DNA of 33,629 nt from Clostridia bacterium (GTDB taxonomy: Bacteria; Bacillota; Clostridia; Christensenellales; UBA1242): contig JAZSMW010000100.1 in NCBI GenBank assembly GCA_045536095.1, positions 1-33,629 on the forward strand, written 5' to 3'. The notes below the pieces were generated by a model. It searched no databases. It worked only from the letters and a program-made list of their open reading frames with translations, and had not been told where the DNA came from. Shown in pieces: positions 10,808 through 33,629 of this stretch (position 1 is the first letter of the stretch; each line of letters begins with the position of its first letter). The position numbers and the translations under genes were made by a program.

Positions 10808-11239
10808 ATGGAAGAACAGGAGTTATTACAACACAAACAAAACATGATTGAGCGAGGCTCTGCAATTATTTACCCACAACTTGTTCAAGAGTGGATAGAA
10901 CACGTTAACACTTTTGCTGTTTGGCCACATAGCGAAACATTAAAAATTTCGGTAACAATAATGGAAGAGCTAGCCAAAGACACTAAAATAGAAGAAATTG
11001 CCAAATTCATTCCTAACGATTCCGAACTTTCATTAGCAACAATGTTTAACACTGTTACCCGCTTTTCAAAACGTGGTATAGAATTTTTTAAAAATTACTT
11101 TTTATCTTATAAAACCGACATGGCAAGCACCAACGAAAAACATAAACAAATGTGGACCGATTATTTAAGAAAAATACAAGAACAAAATGAAAAATTTGAA
11201 AAAGAATTAATCACCCCAAAACCCGACAAACATCAATAA
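10808..11239 (+). CDS. Hypothetical protein (143 aa)
   Basis: It has an ORF with a GAGG RBS, its own promoter and a downstream hairpin. I recognise no family motif. Confidence 0.5.
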   Translation: MEEQELLQHKQNMIERGSAIIYPQLVQEWIEHVNTFAVWPHSETLKISVTIMEELAKDTKIEEIAKFIPNDSELSLATMFNTVTRFSKRGIEFFKNYFLSYKTDMASTNEKHKQMWTDYLRKIQEQNEKFEKELITPKPDKHQ

Positions 11240-11244
11240 TTAAT

Positions 11245-11277
11245 AAGCGCATTAATTAAAATGCGTTTATTTTTTTA
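11245..11277 (+). terminator. Weak intrinsic terminator after the 143-aa gene
   Basis: Stem AAGCGCAT / ATGCGTTT (includes one G-U pair) is followed by ATTTTTTT. Confidence 0.45.
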
Positions 11278-11352
11278 ATATAATTAAAAATGTTAAATTC
11301 TTACTTGTGTTTTTTTTGTTTTTGTTGTATGCTTTTAGGGTAATATTAATCT

Positions 11353-11438
11353 CCGCACAAAACCGTTTGCTCTTTGCAAACAAAACCCGCAGTTTTGCAG
11401 GTTTAAAAGTTTTTGCACAAAAACTTTGTTTTGTGCGG
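11353..11438 (+). ncRNA. Candidate structured RNA / 5' leader element E1: 86-nt cloverleaf-like four-helix junction 29 nt upstream of the alaS start
   Basis: P1 is a perfect 11-bp helix: CCGCACAAAAC (11353-11363) with GTTTTGTGCGG (11428-11438). It encloses three hairpins: 11365-11381 (6 bp), 11383-11404 (8 bp plus 1 mismatch) and 11406-11427 (9 bp). Junction linkers are 1, 1, 1 and 0 nt. No U-tract follows. Strand is inferred from similarity to E2. Confidence 0.4.
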
Positions 11439-11467
11439 GCAAAAATAAACATATATGGAGAAAATAA

Positions 11468-13276
11468 ATGAAACAAAATTTAAAAGACTTATACATCAAC
11501 TTTTTTATTTCTAAGGGGCACAAACAAATACCATCGGCAAGCGTTGTTCCAGAAAACGACCCTACTTGCCTATTTAACACTGCAGGCATGCAACCACTTG
11601 TTCCATATCTTTTAGGAGCAAAACATCCTCTTGGCACCAGATTGTGCGACTTTCAAAAATGTTTTAGGCTTACCGATTTAGACGAAGTTGGCGACAGTTA
11701 CCACCACACATTTTTTGAAATGCTTGGAAACTGGAGTTTGGGCGACTATTTTAAAAAAGAATCTATTACATGGAGTTACGAATTTTTAACAACAGTTTTA
11801 AACATAGATAAATCTAGATTAGCCTTTACCGTGTTTGAAGGAAACGAATATGTTAAAGCCGACACAGAAAGCGCTCAAATTTGGGAAAGCCTTGGGGTTA
11901 GTAAAGACCGAATTGCATTTTTGCCAGCCGAAGATAACTGGTGGCCTAGCATGGAGCAATTTGGCCCATGTGGAAGCGATACCGAAATTTTTTATTGGGT
12001 AGACAAAACAACTCCAGCTCCCGAAAAATTTGACCCAAGCGATAAGCGTTGGATGGAAATTTGGAACAATGTTTTTATGCAATACAATCATTTACCTAGC
12101 GGAGAATTTGTTCCACTAACCCAACAAAACGTAGACACAGGTATGGGCGTGGAGCGTACAACCGCCGTTCTTGCCGGGCTTAGCGACAACTACCAAACTA
12201 ACATTTGGAAACCAATTATTAACCAAATAGAAAAAATAAGTGGCAAATCTTACCAAGAAAACCAAAAGGCAATGCGCGTTGTTGCCGACCACATTCGTGC
12301 AATTGTTATGATAGCAAGTGATGATGCTGGCATTAAACCATCTAACACCGACCAAGGCTACATTTTAAGACGTTTAATTAGAAGAGTTATTCGTTTTGCA
12401 AAACAACTTGGCATAAACACAACAGAAAATTTTGAAGAAGAAATTATTAATATTATTGTTGACCAATTTAAAGATTATTACGAAGAGGTTGGCAGAAATG
12501 CAAATGTTGTTAAACAAGTGTTTAGTGAAGAAAAAAACAAATTTAACAAAACAATCGAAAACGGCTTAAAAGAATTTGAAAAAGTTCTTGCCGGATTTAG
12601 CCGTAAAGAAGAATTTTTAAGAAGAACCGACCCAAATGCAACTGTTGAGCGCATAATAACAGGAAAAACCGCATTTAATTTATACGAAACTTATGGATTC
12701 CCTATAGAAATGACCGAAGAACTTGCAAAAGAAAGAGGTGTTATGGTAGACACATCTAACTTTAAACAACTTTTTGCCGAGCACCAAGAAAAGTCTAAGG
12801 CAGGAAGTGAGCAAAAATTTAAGGGTGGTTTAAGTGATTCTAGCGAAGAAAATGCACGTCTTCACACAGCAACTCACCTAATGCAAGCCGGGCTTCAAAA
12901 ATTTGTAAGCGCCGACATTCGTCAAAAAGGCTCTAACATAACACCAGAGCGTTTACGCTTTGACTTTAATTGCGATCACAAACTCACCGAAGAAGAACTT
13001 AAACAAGTAGAAGATTTTGTTAACGATGCAATTGCTCAAAACATACCTGTTGAAGTTAGCGAAATGACAGTTGAAGAAGCCAAAGCTTCTGGTGCCCTTG
13101 GAGTGTTTGATAGCAGATACGGCGAAAAAGTAACCGTTTACACAATTGGCAACATTTCTAAAGAAATTTGTGGTGGACCACACGCAAAAAACACTGGCGA
13201 CCTTCACCACTTTAAAATTATTAAAGAAGAATCTTCTTCTAGCGGAATTAGAAGAATTAAAGCAATTTTAGATTAA
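11468..13276 (+). CDS. alaS: Alanine--tRNA ligase, short form (602 aa: catalytic and editing domains, no C-Ala domain)
   Basis: Motifs are GHKQIPSASVVPENDPTCLFNTAGM and FFEMLGNWSLGDYFK. Editing-site motifs are HTATHLM and CGGPHAKNTGD. The ORF ends at GIRRIKAILD, directly after the editing domain. RBS is GGAG. Confidence 0.85.
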   Translation: MKQNLKDLYINFFISKGHKQIPSASVVPENDPTCLFNTAGMQPLVPYLLGAKHPLGTRLCDFQKCFRLTDLDEVGDSYHHTFFEMLGNWSLGDYFKKESITWSYEFLTTVLNIDKSRLAFTVFEGNEYVKADTESAQIWESLGVSKDRIAFLPAEDNWWPSMEQFGPCGSDTEIFYWVDKTTPAPEKFDPSDKRWMEIWNNVFMQYNHLPSGEFVPLTQQNVDTGMGVERTTAVLAGLSDNYQTNIWKPIINQIEKISGKSYQENQKAMRVVADHIRAIVMIASDDAGIKPSNTDQGYILRRLIRRVIRFAKQLGINTTENFEEEIINIIVDQFKDYYEEVGRNANVVKQVFSEEKNKFNKTIENGLKEFEKVLAGFSRKEEFLRRTDPNATVERIITGKTAFNLYETYGFPIEMTEELAKERGVMVDTSNFKQLFAEHQEKSKAGSEQKFKGGLSDSSEENARLHTATHLMQAGLQKFVSADIRQKGSNITPERLRFDFNCDHKLTEEELKQVEDFVNDAIAQNIPVEVSEMTVEEAKASGALGVFDSRYGEKVTVYTIGNISKEICGGPHAKNTGDLHHFKIIKEESSSSGIRRIKAILD

Positions 13277-13288
13277 TATGGAGAAAAT

Positions 13289-15028
13289 ATGAAACAAAAT
13301 ATATACAGAACTCACTCTTGCGGAGAATTAAGGCTTTGCAATGCTGGGCAAGAAGTTAAAATTTCGGGGTGGATTAACTCTATTAGAAAACTTGGCGGAA
13401 TTACCTTTTTAACAATTAGAGATCACTTTGGCTTAACTCAAGTTGTGGCAGAAAACGAACAAATGTTAGACGGCCTTTGCAAAGAGTGTACCGTTTGTGT
13501 TACTGGAACGGTTACCGAAAGAGAAAGCAAAAATTTAAAAATGGAAACAGGTGAAATAGAGGTTATTGCAAAAAACATACAACTTCTTGGAAAGTGTGAA
13601 CCTGTTTTGCCTTTTGAAATTGCCGACGCGCAAAACACCAAAGAAGAACTTAGGCTTAAATATAGATATTTAGATTTAAGAAATTCTAATGCACATAATC
13701 TTATTGTGTTTAGATCTAAGGTTTTAAACTTTGTAAGAAACAAACTAACCAACATGGGCTTTATGGAAGTTCAAACCCCAATTTTAACCTCGTCTAGCCC
13801 AGAAGGCGCAAGAGATTACATTGTTCCAACAGTTAATGCTCCGGGCGAATTTTATGCACTTCCTCAAGCCCCACAACAATTTAAACAACTTCTTATGATT
13901 TCGGGCTTTGATAAATATTTTCAAGTTGCTCCTTGCTTTAGAAACGAGGCAGCAAGAGCAGACCGCTCTCCTGGTGAATTTTATCAAATAGACATGGAAA
14001 TGAGTTTTGCTACTCAAGACGATGTTATGGAATATTGCGAAGAGTTTGTTTGCGAACTTTTTAACACTTTTACAACAAAACAAATGGCAACTGCTCCTTT
14101 TGTAAAAATTCCTTACAAAGAAGCAATGGAAAAATATTGTAGCGACAAGCCAGACCTTAGAAACCCACTTATTGTGCACGACTTAACAACTGCTTTTGCA
14201 GGCACCGAGTTTAATGCCTTTAAGGGCAAAACAATAAAAGCCATTTGCGTAAACGCTGGCGAAAAGCCAAGAAGATTTTATGACGACCTTGGCACATATA
14301 TTGTTTCTTTTGAGGGTAAAGGTCTTGCATGGGTTAAATTTGACGGAACCGACTTTACTGGCGGAATTTCTAAATTTTTAACCGAACAAAATAAAAAAGA
14401 TTTAATATCTGAGTTTAATCTTGTTGGGCAAGAAAGCATTTTCTTTATTGCCGACGAACTTCAAATGGCACAAAAACTTGCAAACGTTTTAAGAAACAAA
14501 CTAGGCGAAGAATTAAATTTAATCGACAAAAACGCCGTTGCTTGTTGCTGGATTTGCGACTTCCCATTTTTTGAAAAGAATGATGAGGGGAACATTGATT
14601 TTGCGCACAATCCATTTAGCATGCCTCAAGGCGGAATAGATGCATTAAACCAAAAAGACCCATATAGCATAGTTGCCTACCAATACGACCTTGTTATTAA
14701 CGGCTACGAAACTTTAAGCGGTGCTGTAAGAAATCACCAAACCGACCTTATGGTTAAAGCCTTTGAAATGGCGGGCTACAATAAAGAAACTGTTGAACAA
14801 AAATTTGGCGCATTATATAACGCATTTAAATATGGTGCACCTCCTCACGCTGGTTGCGCATTTGGGCTAGAACGTCTTCTTATGATTATGACCGATAATG
14901 AGTTTATTAGAGACGTTATTGCATTCCCACTAAACAAAAATGCAAGAGATTTAATGATGGGTGCTCCAAGTTTTGTTTCTCAAAAACAACTAACCGATGT
15001 TGGAATTCAGTTAATTAAAAAAGACTAA
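13289..15028 (+). CDS. aspS: Aspartate--tRNA ligase (bacterial type)
   Basis: 579 aa. Class II motifs are FYALPQAPQQFKQLLM, FQVAPCFRNEAARADRSPGEFYQIDMEMSF and GCAFGLERL. It starts 12 nt after alaS, so the two are probably an operon. Confidence 0.95.
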   Translation: MKQNIYRTHSCGELRLCNAGQEVKISGWINSIRKLGGITFLTIRDHFGLTQVVAENEQMLDGLCKECTVCVTGTVTERESKNLKMETGEIEVIAKNIQLLGKCEPVLPFEIADAQNTKEELRLKYRYLDLRNSNAHNLIVFRSKVLNFVRNKLTNMGFMEVQTPILTSSSPEGARDYIVPTVNAPGEFYALPQAPQQFKQLLMISGFDKYFQVAPCFRNEAARADRSPGEFYQIDMEMSFATQDDVMEYCEEFVCELFNTFTTKQMATAPFVKIPYKEAMEKYCSDKPDLRNPLIVHDLTTAFAGTEFNAFKGKTIKAICVNAGEKPRRFYDDLGTYIVSFEGKGLAWVKFDGTDFTGGISKFLTEQNKKDLISEFNLVGQESIFFIADELQMAQKLANVLRNKLGEELNLIDKNAVACCWICDFPFFEKNDEGNIDFAHNPFSMPQGGIDALNQKDPYSIVAYQYDLVINGYETLSGAVRNHQTDLMVKAFEMAGYNKETVEQKFGALYNAFKYGAPPHAGCAFGLERLLMIMTDNEFIRDVIAFPLNKNARDLMMGAPSFVSQKQLTDVGIQLIKKD

Positions 15029-15077
15029 TATCTCATTAATCTAATAACAAATTATCTTGTAAATGCGATATTTCCTA
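15028..15077 (+). repeat. Hairpin repeat, copy A (decayed 5' arm), immediately after the aspS stop
   Basis: The 23-nt core TCTTGTAAATGCGATATTTCCTA (15055-15077) is identical to 28482-28504. The whole ~50 nt aligns with copy B at roughly 85 percent identity. Confidence 0.7.
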
Positions 15078-15089
15078 GATAATTAAATA

Positions 15090-21531: not shown

Positions 21532-21574
21532 GGAAATACTGCCATAATCATACCTTTATTGATATTTCCTACTA
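21532..21574 (+). repeat. Hairpin carrying the shared 14-mer GATATTTCCTACTA (related to repeat copy B)
   Basis: GGAAATA (21532-21538) pairs with TATTTCC (21563-21569). GATATTTCCTACTA (21561-21574) is identical to 28494-28507. As in copy B, an A-run and a terminator follow. Confidence 0.5.
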
Positions 21575-25136: not shown

Positions 25137-25241
25137 ATTTCCTCCAATTAGTTTTTGTTATTATATGATATTATTTGTAGCCTTTGTGTATATATTATTG
25201 TTTTATTTTGGCTTAATTTTGCTTTTTTTAGCAAAAAAAAT

Positions 25242-25331
25242 ACAGCCACTGCAAACCATTTGATGTTCAAAGGGTTTAGCCTGCAAAAATTGCAGGCTGT
25301 GGGTTGACAAATGGCAACCCGCAGTGGCTGT
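25242..25331 (-). ncRNA. Candidate structured RNA element E2: 90-nt four-helix junction between rsmA and the 297-aa gene; may double as a branched terminator
   Basis: P1 is an 11-bp helix (25242-25252 with 25321-25331). It encloses hairpins 25253-25277 (10 bp plus 1 mismatch), 25278-25298 (8-9 bp) and 25301-25320 (6 bp). On the minus strand P1 is followed by A-U8 (25241-25233). The architecture is the same as E1. Confidence 0.4.
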
Positions 25332-28219: not shown

Positions 28220-28452
28220 CCCTAAAGGCTAAATTTAGCCACTTTTAGTTATTATACATAAATAATAACACAATTTTTTATTTATACAAAACAATTTATC
28301 AAATTACAAAAAAAAGATATATAATATTTTATTTAAAAAAATCTTGAATATTCGTTTTTACAAAGTTTAACAGTTTTAATTAATTACAACATAAATAAGC
28401 TGGTCAAAACTTATGGCGCTAAGCCAATTGATAGATTCCTTTGGTACGGGCA

Positions 28453-28507
28453 GATATCGCATTTAATCTGAGAATAAATTCTCTTGTAAATGCGATATTT
28501 CCTACTA
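28453..28507 (+). repeat. Hairpin repeat, copy B (intact)
   Basis: ATATCGCATTTA (28454-28465) pairs perfectly with TAAATGCGATAT (28487-28498). The inner stem is GAGAA-TAAA-TTCTC. The 23-nt core at 28482-28504 is identical to 15055-15077. Confidence 0.7.
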
Positions 28508-28510
28508 TAT

Positions 28511-28553
28511 AAAAAAAAGCGCACTGTCCCATTAACAGTGCGTAATTTTTTTT
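28511..28553. terminator. Bidirectional terminator (serves the 69-aa gene on the minus strand)
   Basis: A8, then CGCACTGT-CCCATTA-ACAGTGCG, then TAA-T8. Confidence 0.75.
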
Positions 28554-30564: not shown

Positions 30565-30695
30565 CACTTTTTTCATTTTGTATCATTTATTTTCATCACA
30601 ATCATTTTTTTCTTGATTTTGCGTGCATTATATACCAAGCGAAATATTTATCATCACTACAAAACACTGCCCAACTCCTACTATCATTTGTAAAC

Positions 30696-30740
30696 GGTGG
30701 ACATTTGGTGGACACGTCAAAATTTTAAAAAGTGTCCACC
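30696..30740. repeat. Motif cluster 1: GGTGGACA x2 direct plus TGTCCACC inverted (DnaA-box-like)
   Basis: GGTGGACA at 30696-30703 and 30707-30714. TGTCCACC at 30733-30740. Confidence 0.8.
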
Positions 30741-30747
30741 AACAAAA

Positions 30748-31280: not shown

Positions 31281-31390
31281 GTGAAATACTAAAAGGTGCA
31301 ATGAAAAATTAATTGCAACAAAAAGATGTTGTGGAGGTCGCTTAAAAAGTGCCGTTCCAGCCGAAATAATTACTCAAATTTTACCACTTT

Positions 31391-31446
31391 TGTCCACCAG
31401 TGAAATCCGCGGTGGACATTTCGTGGACATTTTGGGTTGGTGGACA
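31391..31446. repeat. Motif cluster 2a: TGTCCACC followed by three copies of (G)GTGGACA
   Basis: TGTCCACC at 31391-31398. GGTGGACA at 31411-31418. cGTGGACA at 31422-31429. GGTGGACA at 31439-31446. Confidence 0.8.
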
Positions 31447-31459
31447 CGTTTTAAAAATT

Positions 31460-31488
31460 AAAAAGTGCCGTATTATCGGGCACTTTTT
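31460..31488. terminator. Hairpin with flanking A and T runs (terminator-like, bidirectional)
   Basis: AAAAAGTGCCG-TATTAT-CGGGCACTTTTT with one bulged G. Confidence 0.5.
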
Positions 31489-31633: not shown

Positions 31634-31706
31634 TTGTCCACACCCACAGACGCAACCCCAAGGTGGACAAAATGTGGACAACAAAATTTTTCTAATTTTG
31701 TCCACC
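31634..31706. repeat. Motif cluster 2b: four DnaA-box-like 9-mers forming two inverted pairs
   Basis: TTGTCCACA at 31634-31642. GGTGGACAA at 31662-31670. TGTGGACAA at 31673-31681 (reverse complement TTGTCCACA). TTGTCCACC at 31698-31706. Confidence 0.8.
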
Positions 31707-31797
31707 ATAGCAAGAAAAAGACACTCAAAATTTAATCTGAATGTCTTGTAATTTATTTACTTAATGCATCTTCATTGTTATTTTTTGATTTTCTGTA

Positions 31798-33482: not shown

Positions 33483-33617
33483 TACTTAAATCACAAAAGG
33501 CCAACTGAAGTTTTAAATACAGAAAAAACGATATGAAACCATTTTAAAGTTATTTACATTAGACAAGTTTCAATAAGTTCCGTCTGGTGCAAAAAAAATT
33601 CCTGAAAACTACCTTTT

Positions 33618-33626
33618 TTGTCCACC
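33618..33626. repeat. Another TTGTCCACC box at the window edge
   Basis: TTTTTTGTCCACCGG has the same flank pattern as TTTTGTCCACCAG at 31388-31400. A further cluster may continue beyond the window. Confidence 0.6.
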
Positions 33627-33629
33627 GGC

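What the first reader, a model, noticed from the sequence alone, without database searches (positions are those of the whole stretch)
11353..11438. 86-nt cloverleaf-like four-helix junction immediately upstream of a minimal alaS
A perfect 11-bp closing helix encloses three hairpins joined by 0-1 nt linkers. The element ends 29 nt before the alaS ATG. No U-tract follows, so it is not a terminator. It also lacks T-box sequence features. The topology resembles tRNA, but the stem lengths are wrong and the closing helix has no G3:U70-like pair. It could be a 5' stabiliser, a protein-binding operator for a tRNA synthetase operon, or one copy of a novel RNA class (see E2).
Basis: seen in the sequence. 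Interest (0 to 1): 0.7.

Follow-up and report, generated by a model that had tools for sequence, protein, structure and literature searches.

The report
Young nested palindrome in alaS leader
The 86-nt cloverleaf-shaped fold upstream of alaS is real, but it is a recent strain-specific nested DNA palindrome that grew in the gene's leader, not a conserved regulatory RNA or a new RNA family.

Summary
Window 11353-11438 folds into a perfect 11-bp closing helix around three hairpins (-35.6 kcal/mol, z = -5.4). It ends 29 nt before the alaS ATG, has no U-tract and matches no T-box, tRNA or Rfam family. A second element with the same topology, E2 (25242-25331), lies after ksgA.

E1 occurs only in a second assembly with an identical AlaRS. 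It is absent upstream of alaS in all eleven distinct relatives examined (80-90% AlaRS identity), although the promoter block just upstream is conserved. E2 is likewise absent in relatives.

E1, E2 and a third junction in a 90% relative (E3, L082:6855-6992) share no sequence. Together they have 0 G·U pairs in 125 sense-strand base pairs, and the antisense strand folds as well or better. That is a DNA-palindrome signature. At two orthologous sites, relatives show graded forms from no hairpin, through a simple and a longer hairpin, to a four-way junction.

Best reading: recent in-situ elaboration of intergenic hairpins by inverted duplication (template switching). Any RNA-level effect is incidental: a possible 5' stability module for E1 and a terminator for E2. 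Interest is low to moderate.

The parts
11353..11438 (+). E1: 86-nt compound palindrome that folds as a four-way junction, lying in the alaS 5' leader
   Evidence: It is 100% identical in a second assembly (L081) and absent in all other relatives.
11353..11363 (+). 5' arm of the closing helix (CCGCACAAAAC). It pairs with 11428-11438 (GTTTTGTGCGG).
   Evidence: All 11 pairs are Watson-Crick.
11365..11381 (+). Hairpin 1 (GTTTGC-TCTTT-GCAAAC). With the preceding AAAACC it shares a 13-mer with the leader hairpin of relative L085 at the same position.
   Evidence: The 13-mer match was reached by 19 of 2000 shuffles and by 0 of 1835 control segments.
11383..11404 (+). Hairpin 2 (AAACC-C-GCA-GTTT-TGC-A-GGTTT). 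It has one C·A mismatch on the + strand, which is a U·G pair on the - strand.
11406..11427 (+). Hairpin 3 (AAAGTTTTT-GCAC-AAAAACTTT), abutting the 3' arm of the closing helix with no linker
11428..11438 (+). 3' arm of the closing helix (GTTTTGTGCGG)
11305..11346 (+). Conserved alaS promoter block. P1 is -35 TTGTGT (11305-11310), a 17-nt spacer and -10 TATGCT (11328-11333). An alternative -10, TAATAT (11341-11346), follows it. The predicted start is about 11340 (P1) or about 11353 (P2).
   Evidence: The block aligns with L083, L084, L085 and L112. Hexamer assignment is my reading of the sequence. The consensus scan did not call either promoter.
11457..11470 (+). alaS Shine-Dalgarno GGAG (11457-11460) and ATG (11468-11470). 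Both are unpaired in the fold of the whole leader.
11242..11278 (+). Ordinary intrinsic terminator of the upstream 143-aa gene (12-bp stem plus T-run). It shows that E1 is not needed as that gene's terminator.
25242..25331 (-). E2: 90-nt four-way junction of the same topology (11-bp closing helix ACAGCCACTGC/GCAGTGGCTGT and three hairpins), 20 nt after the ksgA stop codon
   Evidence: It is absent at the orthologous site in L091 and L093.
25233..25241 (-). A+U8 run directly after E2 on the sense (minus) strand, giving E2 the form of an intrinsic terminator with a branched loop

Best explanation
E1 is a young, lineage-specific compound DNA palindrome (nested inverted repeats) in the alaS leader. 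It lies between the conserved promoter and the ribosome-binding site.

It most likely arose in situ. A pre-existing short leader hairpin was elaborated by successive inverted duplications, of the kind produced by replication template switching. Each such event creates a perfect stem in one step. It was probably not inserted as a ready-made mobile element, and it has not been maintained as a conserved RNA.

The same process produced E2 downstream of ksgA and a third junction, E3, in a 90% relative (L082).

When alaS-aspS is transcribed, E1 folds co-transcriptionally: three local hairpins form first and are then clamped by the 11-bp helix. The result is a very stable four-way junction that leaves the Shine-Dalgarno sequence free, so it is tolerated.

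Any function is secondary. It could protect the 5' end if transcription starts at about 11353. E2, followed by U8, probably serves as the ksgA terminator.

Shown: the structure, its recent origin, the DNA-palindrome signature, the graded forms at orthologous sites, and the free RBS. Inferred: the template-switch mechanism, the transcription start, and any effect on mRNA stability or termination.
For: 1. **Restricted distribution.** E1 is identical in a second assembly with an identical AlaRS (L081). It is absent in all eleven other distinct loci at 80-90% AlaRS identity. The promoter block aligns up to the insertion point, and L084 and L112 go straight from that block to the RBS.
2. **E2 is also a gain.** In L093 the ksgA stop codon is followed within about 20 nt by the conserved ATATCATATAAT promoter of the next gene. 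The window has about 150 extra nt there.
3. **No family.** E1, E2 and E3 share no significant sequence. There is no Rfam hit. The closing-helix patterns give no viral hits. No comparable junction occurs in 312 kb of relatives or in L001-L045.
4. **DNA-palindrome signature.** There are 0 G·U pairs in 34+37+54 = 125 sense-strand pairs, and antisense MFEs are equal or lower.
5. **Graded series, aspS-methyltransferase gap.** The window has a 10-bp hairpin. L083 has a longer hairpin with a GCAAAAAC/GTTTTTGC core, preceded by CCAAAAACTTTTCC. L082 has a 138-nt four-way junction with that core as one arm. The 3' arm of its closing helix is the reverse complement of the shared upstream CAAAAACTTTTC.
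6. **Graded series, alaS leader.** L084 and L112 have nothing. L083 has a 5-bp palindrome. L085 has a 14-bp hairpin that shares a 13-mer with E1 (19/2000 shuffles, 0/1835 control segments). The window has the full junction.
7. **No transposition marks.** There are no target-site duplications and no transposase in the window.
8. **Mechanism is documented.** Template switching creates perfect stems in single events, in bacteria as well as other organisms (PMC8794818).
9. **Tolerated.** The RBS is unpaired in the full leader fold.
Against: - Three independent elements all have exactly three hairpins, 0-2-nt linkers and an 11-16-bp clamp. A purely mutational process does not obviously predict that regularity, which hints at selection for the architecture or at a structure-specific mechanism.
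- The direction of change in the graded series is not rooted by a formal phylogeny. Decay from complex to simple is not excluded at the aspS-methyltransferase site.
- The E1/L085 13-mer match is only moderately significant.
- Only about 34 kb of this genome and about 8 kb of L082 could be examined, so a dispersed family elsewhere in the genome cannot be excluded.
- Perfect pairing could also reflect ongoing arm homogenisation under selection rather than youth.
Confidence: 0.55

Rival explanations
1. E1 is a selected RNA-level module. It would be a 5'-terminal structure that protects alaS-aspS mRNA from 5'-end-dependent decay (RppH/RNase J1-type pathways in Firmicutes). E2 would be the 3' counterpart, acting as terminator and 3' protector.
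For: - If the TAATAT box (11341-11346) is the -10, transcription starts at about 11353. That is the first base of the closing helix, so the 5' end would be fully paired.
- B. subtilis RppH needs at least 2 unpaired 5' nucleotides (PMC3997798).
- The RBS stays free.
- L085's hairpin at the same site has two G·U pairs on the sense strand only.
- E1(+) and E2(-) are both in the sense orientation relative to their genes.
- E2 is followed by U8.
Against: - The better-conserved promoter (P1: -35 TTGTAA-like, 17 nt, -10 TAnnCT) predicts a start at about 11340. That leaves about 13 unpaired nt before E1.
- RNase J1 can degrade through terminator hairpins (PMC3997798).
- All relatives manage with short unstructured leaders.
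- There are no G·U pairs and no sense-strand advantage in E1, E2 or E3.
Confidence: 0.2
2. E1, E2 and E3 are non-autonomous mobile elements (MITE/REP-like, or structure-recognised like integron attC sites). The closing helix would be the terminal inverted repeat, inserted into intergenic DNA.
For: - Presence/absence polymorphism between close relatives with clean boundaries.
- Terminal inverted repeats of 11-16 bp.
- Intergenic location.
- The same clade carries another small dispersed repeat (GATATTTCCTAS: 3 copies against 0.19 expected) and a TIR-like structure upstream of alaS in L082.
Against: - No two elements share sequence.
- There are no target-site duplications.
- There is no transposase, RAYT or integrase in the window.
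- The attC core sites (RYYYAAC/GTTRRRY at the base of the stem) and extrahelical bases are absent (sequence).
- The E3 core has an orthologous simpler hairpin in L083, which argues for vertical descent with elaboration.
- Metagenome hits to the E1 arm pattern are unrelated sequences from higher-GC organisms.
Confidence: 0.12
3. E1 acts at the DNA level. It would be a cruciform-prone palindrome at the promoter/start site, bound by a protein (for example AlaRS itself) or sensitive to supercoiling, and so control alaS transcription.
For: - The strand-symmetric, perfectly Watson-Crick palindrome fits a DNA-level feature.
- It lies within 7-20 bp of the -10 box.
- L083 has a 5-bp palindrome straddling the predicted start.
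- From my own knowledge, not checked here: E. coli AlaRS represses alaS by binding a palindrome flanking its start site (Putney & Schimmel 1981).
Against: - E1 is not conserved in any relative.
- E2 and E3 have the same architecture but are not at promoters.
- Extrusion of an 11-bp inverted repeat across a 64-nt spacer is kinetically unfavourable (established knowledge).
- This 602-aa AlaRS lacks the C-terminal part of the long enzyme: Pfam finds only the catalytic core and the SAD domain.
Confidence: 0.05
4. E1 is an independent small RNA or tRNA-like gene, or a tRNA mimic recognised by RNase P or AlaRS.
For: - Four-way junction topology.
- A -10-like box lies just upstream.
- The metagenome scan found the same 11-mer arms flanking genuine tRNA-Gln and tRNA-Arg genes in other organisms.
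Against: - ARAGORN and the Rfam tRNA model find nothing.
- Stem and loop lengths do not fit tRNA, there is no T-loop or D-loop sequence, and there is no G3:U70.
- No terminator follows E1.
- It is not conserved.
- The tRNA-flanking helices belong to unrelated lineages of 41-59% GC, in which a neighbouring tRNA has a leader-trailer helix of a different sequence.
Confidence: 0.03

Closest known systems
Hairpins created de novo by replication template switching (template-switch mutations; Mönttinen & Löytynoja 2022, PMC8794818)
   Same: Stems are perfect and purely Watson-Crick, and appear abruptly between close relatives. A new arm is the reverse complement of adjacent pre-existing sequence, as in the E3 closing helix. 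Both strands fold equally well.
   Different: The described cases are mostly single stems in rRNA and other RNA genes. Here three hairpins are nested inside a long clamp in intergenic DNA, three times independently. The mechanism is inferred here, not reconstructed on a tree.
Bacterial intergenic palindromic repeats: REP/BIME, REPIN, MITEs, pneumococcal BOX/RUP (reviews PMC3184786, PMC2229807, PMC10969869)
   Same: They are short, intergenic, strongly folding and flanked by inverted repeats. They vary in presence between strains and can affect the stability or termination of neighbouring transcripts.
   Different: Those families are defined by many sequence-related copies, often with target-site duplications and a cognate transposase. 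E1, E2 and E3 share no sequence, have no duplications, and no transposase is nearby.
5'-terminal stem-loop mRNA stabilisers (E. coli ompA and papA; B. subtilis aprE leader; ermC; review PMC3997798)
   Same: A stable structure near the 5' end of a leader, followed by a single-stranded spacer and an accessible RBS.
   Different: Known stabilisers are single hairpins at the extreme 5' end. E1 is a four-way junction, its distance from the 5' end is unknown (0 or about 13 nt), and it is not conserved.
Intrinsic (Rho-independent) terminators
   Same: On its sense strand, E2 has a G+C-rich helix immediately followed by A+U8.
   Different: E1 has no U-tract. In E2 the 'loop' is 68 nt folded into three hairpins, far outside the usual 3-8 nt.
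T-box leaders and tRNA-mimicking operators of aminoacyl-tRNA synthetase genes (for example E. coli thrS)
   Same: Location in the leader of an aaRS operon, and a branched structure.
   Different: No specifier loop, no T-box sequence, no terminator/antiterminator alternative, no anticodon-arm mimicry and no conservation. There is no Rfam match.

Membership tests
T-box riboswitch | Match to the T-box covariance model (stem I with specifier loop, conserved T-box sequence, terminator/antiterminator switch) | tested here: not met
   No Rfam hit at gathering thresholds. No T-box among matches up to E = 10 in 11200-11500. No U-tract follows the element.
tRNA / tRNA-like element | Cloverleaf with a 7-bp acceptor stem, D, anticodon and T arms of canonical size, and conserved D- and T-loop nucleotides | tested here: not met
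   ARAGORN finds 0 genes. The Rfam tRNA model gives no match. The stems are 11, 6, 8 and 9 bp and the loops 5, 4 and 4 nt.
AlaRS-recognised tRNA-Ala mimic | A G3:U70 wobble pair in the acceptor-like helix | tested here: not met
   The closing helix has 11 Watson-Crick pairs and 0 G·U.
Conserved cis-regulatory RNA family | Homologues at the same locus in related genomes, with compensatory base changes | tested here: not met
   E1 is absent upstream of alaS in L001, L082-L086, L088, L089, L112 and L113. The only other copy is 100% identical (L081), so no covariation can be measured.
Intrinsic terminator | Stable G+C-rich helix immediately followed by a U-run on the transcribed strand | tested here: not met
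   E1 is followed by GCAAAAAUAAAC on the + strand and AGAUUAAUAUUA on the - strand. E2 meets this feature on its sense strand with A+U8.
MITE | Multiple sequence-related copies with terminal inverted repeats | tested here: not met
   BLAST of E1, E2 and E3 against the window and all loci gave only self hits, plus one orthologous partial hit for E3. The closing-helix patterns give 0 viral hits. The metagenome hits have unrelated interiors. Only about 34 kb of the host genome was available.
MITE | Target-site duplication flanking the element | tested here: not met
   Flanks are: E1 TAATATTAATCT / GCAAAAATAAAC; E2 AGCAAAAAAAAT / TTGCTCATAAAT; E3 AAAGGTTTAACC / AGGTTTGGAACT.
REP/BIME (RAYT-associated) | High copy number of a conserved palindrome of about 20-40 nt, and a RAYT (IS200/IS605-like Y1) transposase in the genome | tested here: inconclusive
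   No shared palindrome among the elements and no transposase in the window. The rest of the genome could not be examined.
Integron attC site | R''/R' core sites (RYYYAAC ... GTTRRRY) at the base of the stem, extrahelical bases, and an adjacent integrase or cassette array | tested here: not met
   The outer ends of the helix are CCGCAC/GTGCGG and the helix has no bulges. No integrase is present.
5'-terminal stem-loop stabiliser | Structure within 0-1 unpaired nt of the transcript's 5' end, with an accessible RBS | tested here: inconclusive
   The RBS is free. The predicted start is about 11340 (conserved P1, leaving about 13 nt unpaired) or about 11353 (P2, 0 nt unpaired), and it has not been mapped.
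Template-switch-generated palindrome | A new arm is an exact reverse complement of adjacent pre-existing sequence, the change is abrupt between close relatives, and both strands fold equally | tested here: met
   The 3' arm of the E3 closing helix, GAAAAGTTTTTG, is the reverse complement of CAAAAACTTTTC, which L082 and L083 share upstream. There are 0 G·U pairs in 125 and the strands are symmetric. Elements are present or absent between relatives of 86-90% identity. The direction of change is not rooted on a tree.

The most novel reading that the evidence does not exclude
The four-way junction architecture itself is what is selected or recognised in this gut Bacilli lineage: a long clamp, exactly three hairpins and near-zero linkers. 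This would be a structure-defined, sequence-free class of intergenic elements, read by a junction-specific protein or nuclease at the RNA or single-stranded DNA level. It would be analogous to the way integron attC sites are recognised by shape rather than sequence. E1, E2 and E3 would be three members.
Probability: 0.1. Interest if true: 0.65.

Novelty: new variant of a known kind. Interest (0 to 1): 0.3.

Why it matters
It removes a tempting false lead. This is not a new synthetase-operon riboregulator or a tRNA mimic.

What remains is a clean natural example of a complex, very stable branched nucleic-acid structure appearing within a species-level time span inside an essential gene's leader and at a gene's 3' end. 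Intermediate forms are preserved in relatives.

If the in-situ growth model is right, such loci show how structured leader and terminator elements can be born from mutational palindromes before any RNA-level selection acts. They also warn that an extreme folding z-score and a tRNA-like topology do not by themselves indicate a functional RNA family.

Tried and rejected
- **Rfam** at gathering and permissive thresholds on the window and on both elements: nothing credible.
- **ARAGORN** on the window: nothing.
- **Orthologous elements upstream of alaS**: 80 GTDB loci and 12 contig look-ups of 73-100% relatives. Only the identical strain has E1.
- **Covariance model**: not built. The three elements cannot be aligned by sequence, no alignment route for a hand-made structural alignment was available, and no homologues exist to test covariation.
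- **Sequence kinship** of E1, E2 and E3 by sensitive BLAST: none. A 9-nt resemblance between the hairpin 2 sequences of E1 and E2 is not significant.
- **Viral collection scans** for both closing-helix patterns: 0 hits.
- **Metagenome scan** with the E1 closing-helix pattern: 17 loci. Several showed the same 11-mers flanking tRNA-Gln and tRNA-Arg genes, which at first looked like a cargo-carrying element. I rejected this as homology for five reasons:
  - the contigs are 41-59% GC;
  - the interiors are unrelated;
  - one hit lies inside a different REP-like family;
  - a neighbouring tRNA has a leader-trailer helix of a different sequence;
  - E2 and E3 use different arms.
- **Integron attC, ribozyme and RNase P-substrate readings**: rejected on anatomy. 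There are no core sites and no internal loops or conserved unpaired nucleotides.
- **Literature search on alaS autoregulation**: nothing usable.

Full report
**1. The observation**

Window 11353-11438 folds exactly as described:
- a perfect 11-bp closing helix, CCGCACAAAAC/GTTTTGTGCGG;
- three hairpins at 11365-11381, 11383-11404 and 11406-11427;
- linkers of 1, 1, 1 and 0 nt.

The MFE is -35.6 kcal/mol, z = -5.43, and no shuffle out of 200 folds as well. The element ends 29 nt before the alaS ATG (11468) and is followed by GCAAAAATAAAC, with no U-tract. The reverse strand folds slightly better (-39.0 kcal/mol).

Known families do not match. No tRNA is called in the window. Rfam gives nothing at gathering thresholds and only noise at permissive thresholds.

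A purpose-built detector for compact junctions found no junction with at least 3 branches at -35 kcal/mol or better in 30 dinucleotide shuffles of the window. The real window has two. The second, E2 (25242-25331), has the same topology: an 11-bp clamp, three hairpins and about -50 kcal/mol.

**2. Context**

The window is 32% GC and carries Firmicute-type housekeeping genes: mfd, pth, alaS-aspS, a DnaD/DnaB_2-like gene, a DnaI-like gene, ksgA, tatD, mnmE and gmk. There is no transposase or integrase.

The 143-aa gene upstream of E1 has its own ordinary terminator at 11242-11271, followed by a T-run.

Between that terminator and E1 lies a promoter block that is conserved in relatives. It contains -35 TTGTGT (11305-11310), a 17-nt spacer and -10 TATGCT (11328-11333), followed by a second -10-like box, TAATAT (11341-11346). 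The predicted start is therefore about 11340 or about 11353. In the fold of the whole leader, the Shine-Dalgarno GGAG (11457-11460) is unpaired.

**3. Conservation test**

The closest species representative in GTDB (L001, 81% AlaRS identity) has different upstream synteny and no structure. The other 44 loci scanned from that set (L002-L045) show no comparable junction near alaS in the low-GC relatives.

A protein search revealed a graded series of relatives at 77-90% identity. Their contigs were fetched.

| Locus | AlaRS identity | Upstream of alaS |
|---|---|---|
| L081 | 100% | E1 present, 100% identical |
| L082 | 90% | rearranged upstream region, no E1 |
| L112 | 87% | promoter block then RBS directly |
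| L084 | 86% | promoter block then RBS directly |
| L083 | 86% | 5-bp palindrome at that point |
| L085 | 86% | 14-bp hairpin with a 31-nt loop |
| L113 | 86% | unrelated leader of about 150 nt |
| L086, L088, L089 | 80-83% | extended -10 box and leader of about 20 nt |

By parsimony, E1 is a recent gain in one narrow lineage.

E2 behaves the same way. In L093 (73% KsgA identity) the ksgA stop codon is followed almost at once by the conserved ATATCATATAAT promoter of the next gene. The window has about 150 extra nt there, comprising E2, A+U8 and a small hairpin.

**4. Is there a family?**

A third junction, E3, lies between aspS and the methyltransferase gene in the 90% relative (L082:6855-6992; 16-bp clamp, three hairpins, -43 kcal/mol).

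- E1, E2 and E3 share no significant sequence.
- A sensitive sliding-fold scan of 312 kb from this clade found no other element of comparable quality.
- Viral contigs contain neither closing-helix pattern.
- A metagenome scan with the E1 arms and a free interior returned 17 loci. All come from organisms of 41-59% GC and have unrelated interiors.

Some of the metagenome hits are genuine tRNA-Gln and tRNA-Arg genes exactly bracketed by the two 11-mers. One hit lies within a different REP-like repeat family. In those contigs a neighbouring tRNA-Met has a leader-trailer helix of a different sequence. I therefore read the shared 11-mer as coincidence in a very large, inverted-repeat-rich database. 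It is recorded as a curiosity.

**5. RNA or DNA signature?**

Across E1, E2 and E3 there are 125 sense-strand base pairs and not one G·U. The antisense strands fold as well or better. The only imperfection in E1 is a C·A mismatch on the sense strand, which is a U·G pair on the antisense strand.

Helices maintained by selection on an RNA normally accumulate wobble pairs and favour the transcribed strand. If the G·U frequency were even 5%, zero in 125 pairs would be expected about 0.2% of the time. These are DNA-level palindromes. They are either very young or are kept perfect by homogenisation of their arms.

**6. How they arise**

Two orthologous sites preserve graded forms.

*aspS-methyltransferase gap*:
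- The window has a simple 10-bp hairpin, AAATTCCTA…TAGGAATTT.
- L083 has a longer hairpin with a GCAAAAAC…GTTTTTGC core, preceded by CCAAAAACTTTTCC.
- L082 has that same core as one arm of the 138-nt junction. The 3' arm of its clamp (GAAAAGTTTTTG) is the exact reverse complement of the shared upstream CAAAAACTTTTC.

*alaS leader*:
- The L085 hairpin (AAAAATTGTTTGCT…AGCAAACGGTTTTT) and E1 share the 13-mer AAAACCGTTTGCT at the same position.
- A match this long was reached by 19 of 2000 shuffles and by 0 of 1835 control segments.

None of the three elements has a target-site duplication.

A new arm that is a reverse-complement copy of adjacent sequence, appearing abruptly, is the footprint expected of replication template switching. 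That process is documented to create perfect stems in single events (PMC8794818). I therefore favour in-situ elaboration of pre-existing hairpins over insertion of a ready-made mobile element. This step is an inference. The series is not rooted on a tree.

**7. What E1 does**

Nothing conserved. Every relative expresses alaS from the same promoter block with a short or different leader.

Once transcribed, the three hairpins will form first and the clamp will close when its 3' arm emerges. This gives a compact four-way junction 18 nt upstream of the Shine-Dalgarno sequence, which stays free.

- If transcription starts at about 11353, the 5' end is fully paired. It would then resist RppH, which needs at least 2 unpaired nucleotides (PMC3997798). 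That is a plausible stabiliser.
- If transcription starts at the better-conserved P1 (about 11340), about 13 nt are unpaired. RNase J1 is known to degrade through terminator hairpins (same source), so protection is doubtful.

E2 has a G+C-rich clamp followed by A+U8 on its sense strand. It most likely terminates ksgA transcription, which relatives leave unterminated before the next promoter.

**8. Comparison with known systems**

E1 fails the tested defining features of T-box leaders, tRNAs and tRNA mimics, intrinsic terminators, MITEs, integron attC sites and conserved cis-regulatory RNAs. REP/BIME membership could not be settled, because only about 34 kb of the genome was available.

E1 works most like, and probably originates like, a template-switch palindrome. 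Functionally it may resemble a 5' stem-loop stabiliser.

The recurrent architecture (long clamp, exactly three hairpins, near-zero linkers, three times) is the one feature the mutational model does not predict. It is the basis of the residual 'structure-defined class' reading, to which I give about 10%.

**9. Verdict**

The feature is real and the fold is striking. It is a strain-level nested palindrome, not a novel regulatory RNA family. Novelty: a new variant of a known kind (intergenic palindromic, hairpin-forming elements). Interest: 0.3.

Noticed in passing
window 30680-30745, 31390-31460, 31650-31710, 33610-33629: Clusters of GTGGACA/TGTCCAC(C) repeats (for example TTGTCCACC, TGTGGACAA) in the intergenic regions beside mnmE. 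They are one mismatch from the DnaA-box consensus TTATCCACA, so the window may lie at or near the replication origin.
   Followed up: no
window 15067-15078, 21561-21572, 28494-28505 (larger module 28449-28520); L082:2735-2800; L113:128-139: A second small dispersed repeat in this clade. GATATTTCCTAS occurs 3 times in the window against 0.19 expected. It is part of a module, GGGCAGATATCG-(variable hairpin)-CGATATTTCCTACTAnAnAAAAAA. In L082 and L113 a related module lies upstream of alaS. No credible Rfam match.
   Followed up: partly
L082:2520-2990 (upstream of alaS in the 90% relative): An intergenic region of about 580 nt. It is bounded by long A+T-rich inverted repeats (AATGATTAATGATGAATGATAAATTAATGATA … TATCATTCATCATTCATCAATTATAATTTATCATT) and encloses a perfect TTGACT-17-TATAAT promoter. 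This looks like a MITE-type insertion that replaced the ancestral alaS promoter region.
   Followed up: no
L096:4639-4730, L097:6547-6638, L100:210-301, L101:2143-2237, L105:12506-12599: In environmental contigs of 41-59% GC, tRNA-Gln(CTG) and tRNA-Arg(TCG) genes are exactly bracketed by CCGCACAAAAC…GTTTTGTGCGG. This extends the acceptor stem by 11-15 bp. A neighbouring tRNA-Met has a similar leader-trailer helix of a different sequence. This unusual pre-tRNA architecture is unrelated to the window's lineage.
   Followed up: partly
L095:1197-1294, L104:3034-3133, L106:1942-2039, L107:1264-1361, L109:6412-6511, L110:709-806: A conserved structured insert of about 76 nt (…GTGCCCAAGGCACG… core) bracketed by the same 11-mer arms. 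One 83-kb contig carries two copies. No Rfam family matches.
   Followed up: no
window 11453-11489 and 13276-13312: alaS and aspS start with near-identical ribosome-binding and start regions: ATATGGAGAAAATA(A)ATGAAACAAAAT, both encoding MKQN… (repeat D13).
   Followed up: no
window 11468-13276 and loci L017-L045: The 602-aa AlaRS has a catalytic core and a SAD domain but no long C-terminal region. Its 45-54% identical relatives include many MAGs labelled CPR (Patescibacteria, Saccharibacteria) and DPANN (Woesearchaeota, Pacearchaeota, Micrarchaeia), which hints at a shared short-form AlaRS lineage.
   Followed up: no
L088:12522-21809: In an 80% relative, alaS is followed by a giant open reading frame of more than 8370 residues with no Pfam hit on record. 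It runs off the end of the locus.
   Followed up: no
L083:140-160 (just after the -10 box of alaS): A 5-bp palindrome, TTGCC-TGCAT-GGCAA, straddles the predicted alaS start site in an 86% relative, at the position where the window has E1.
   Followed up: partly
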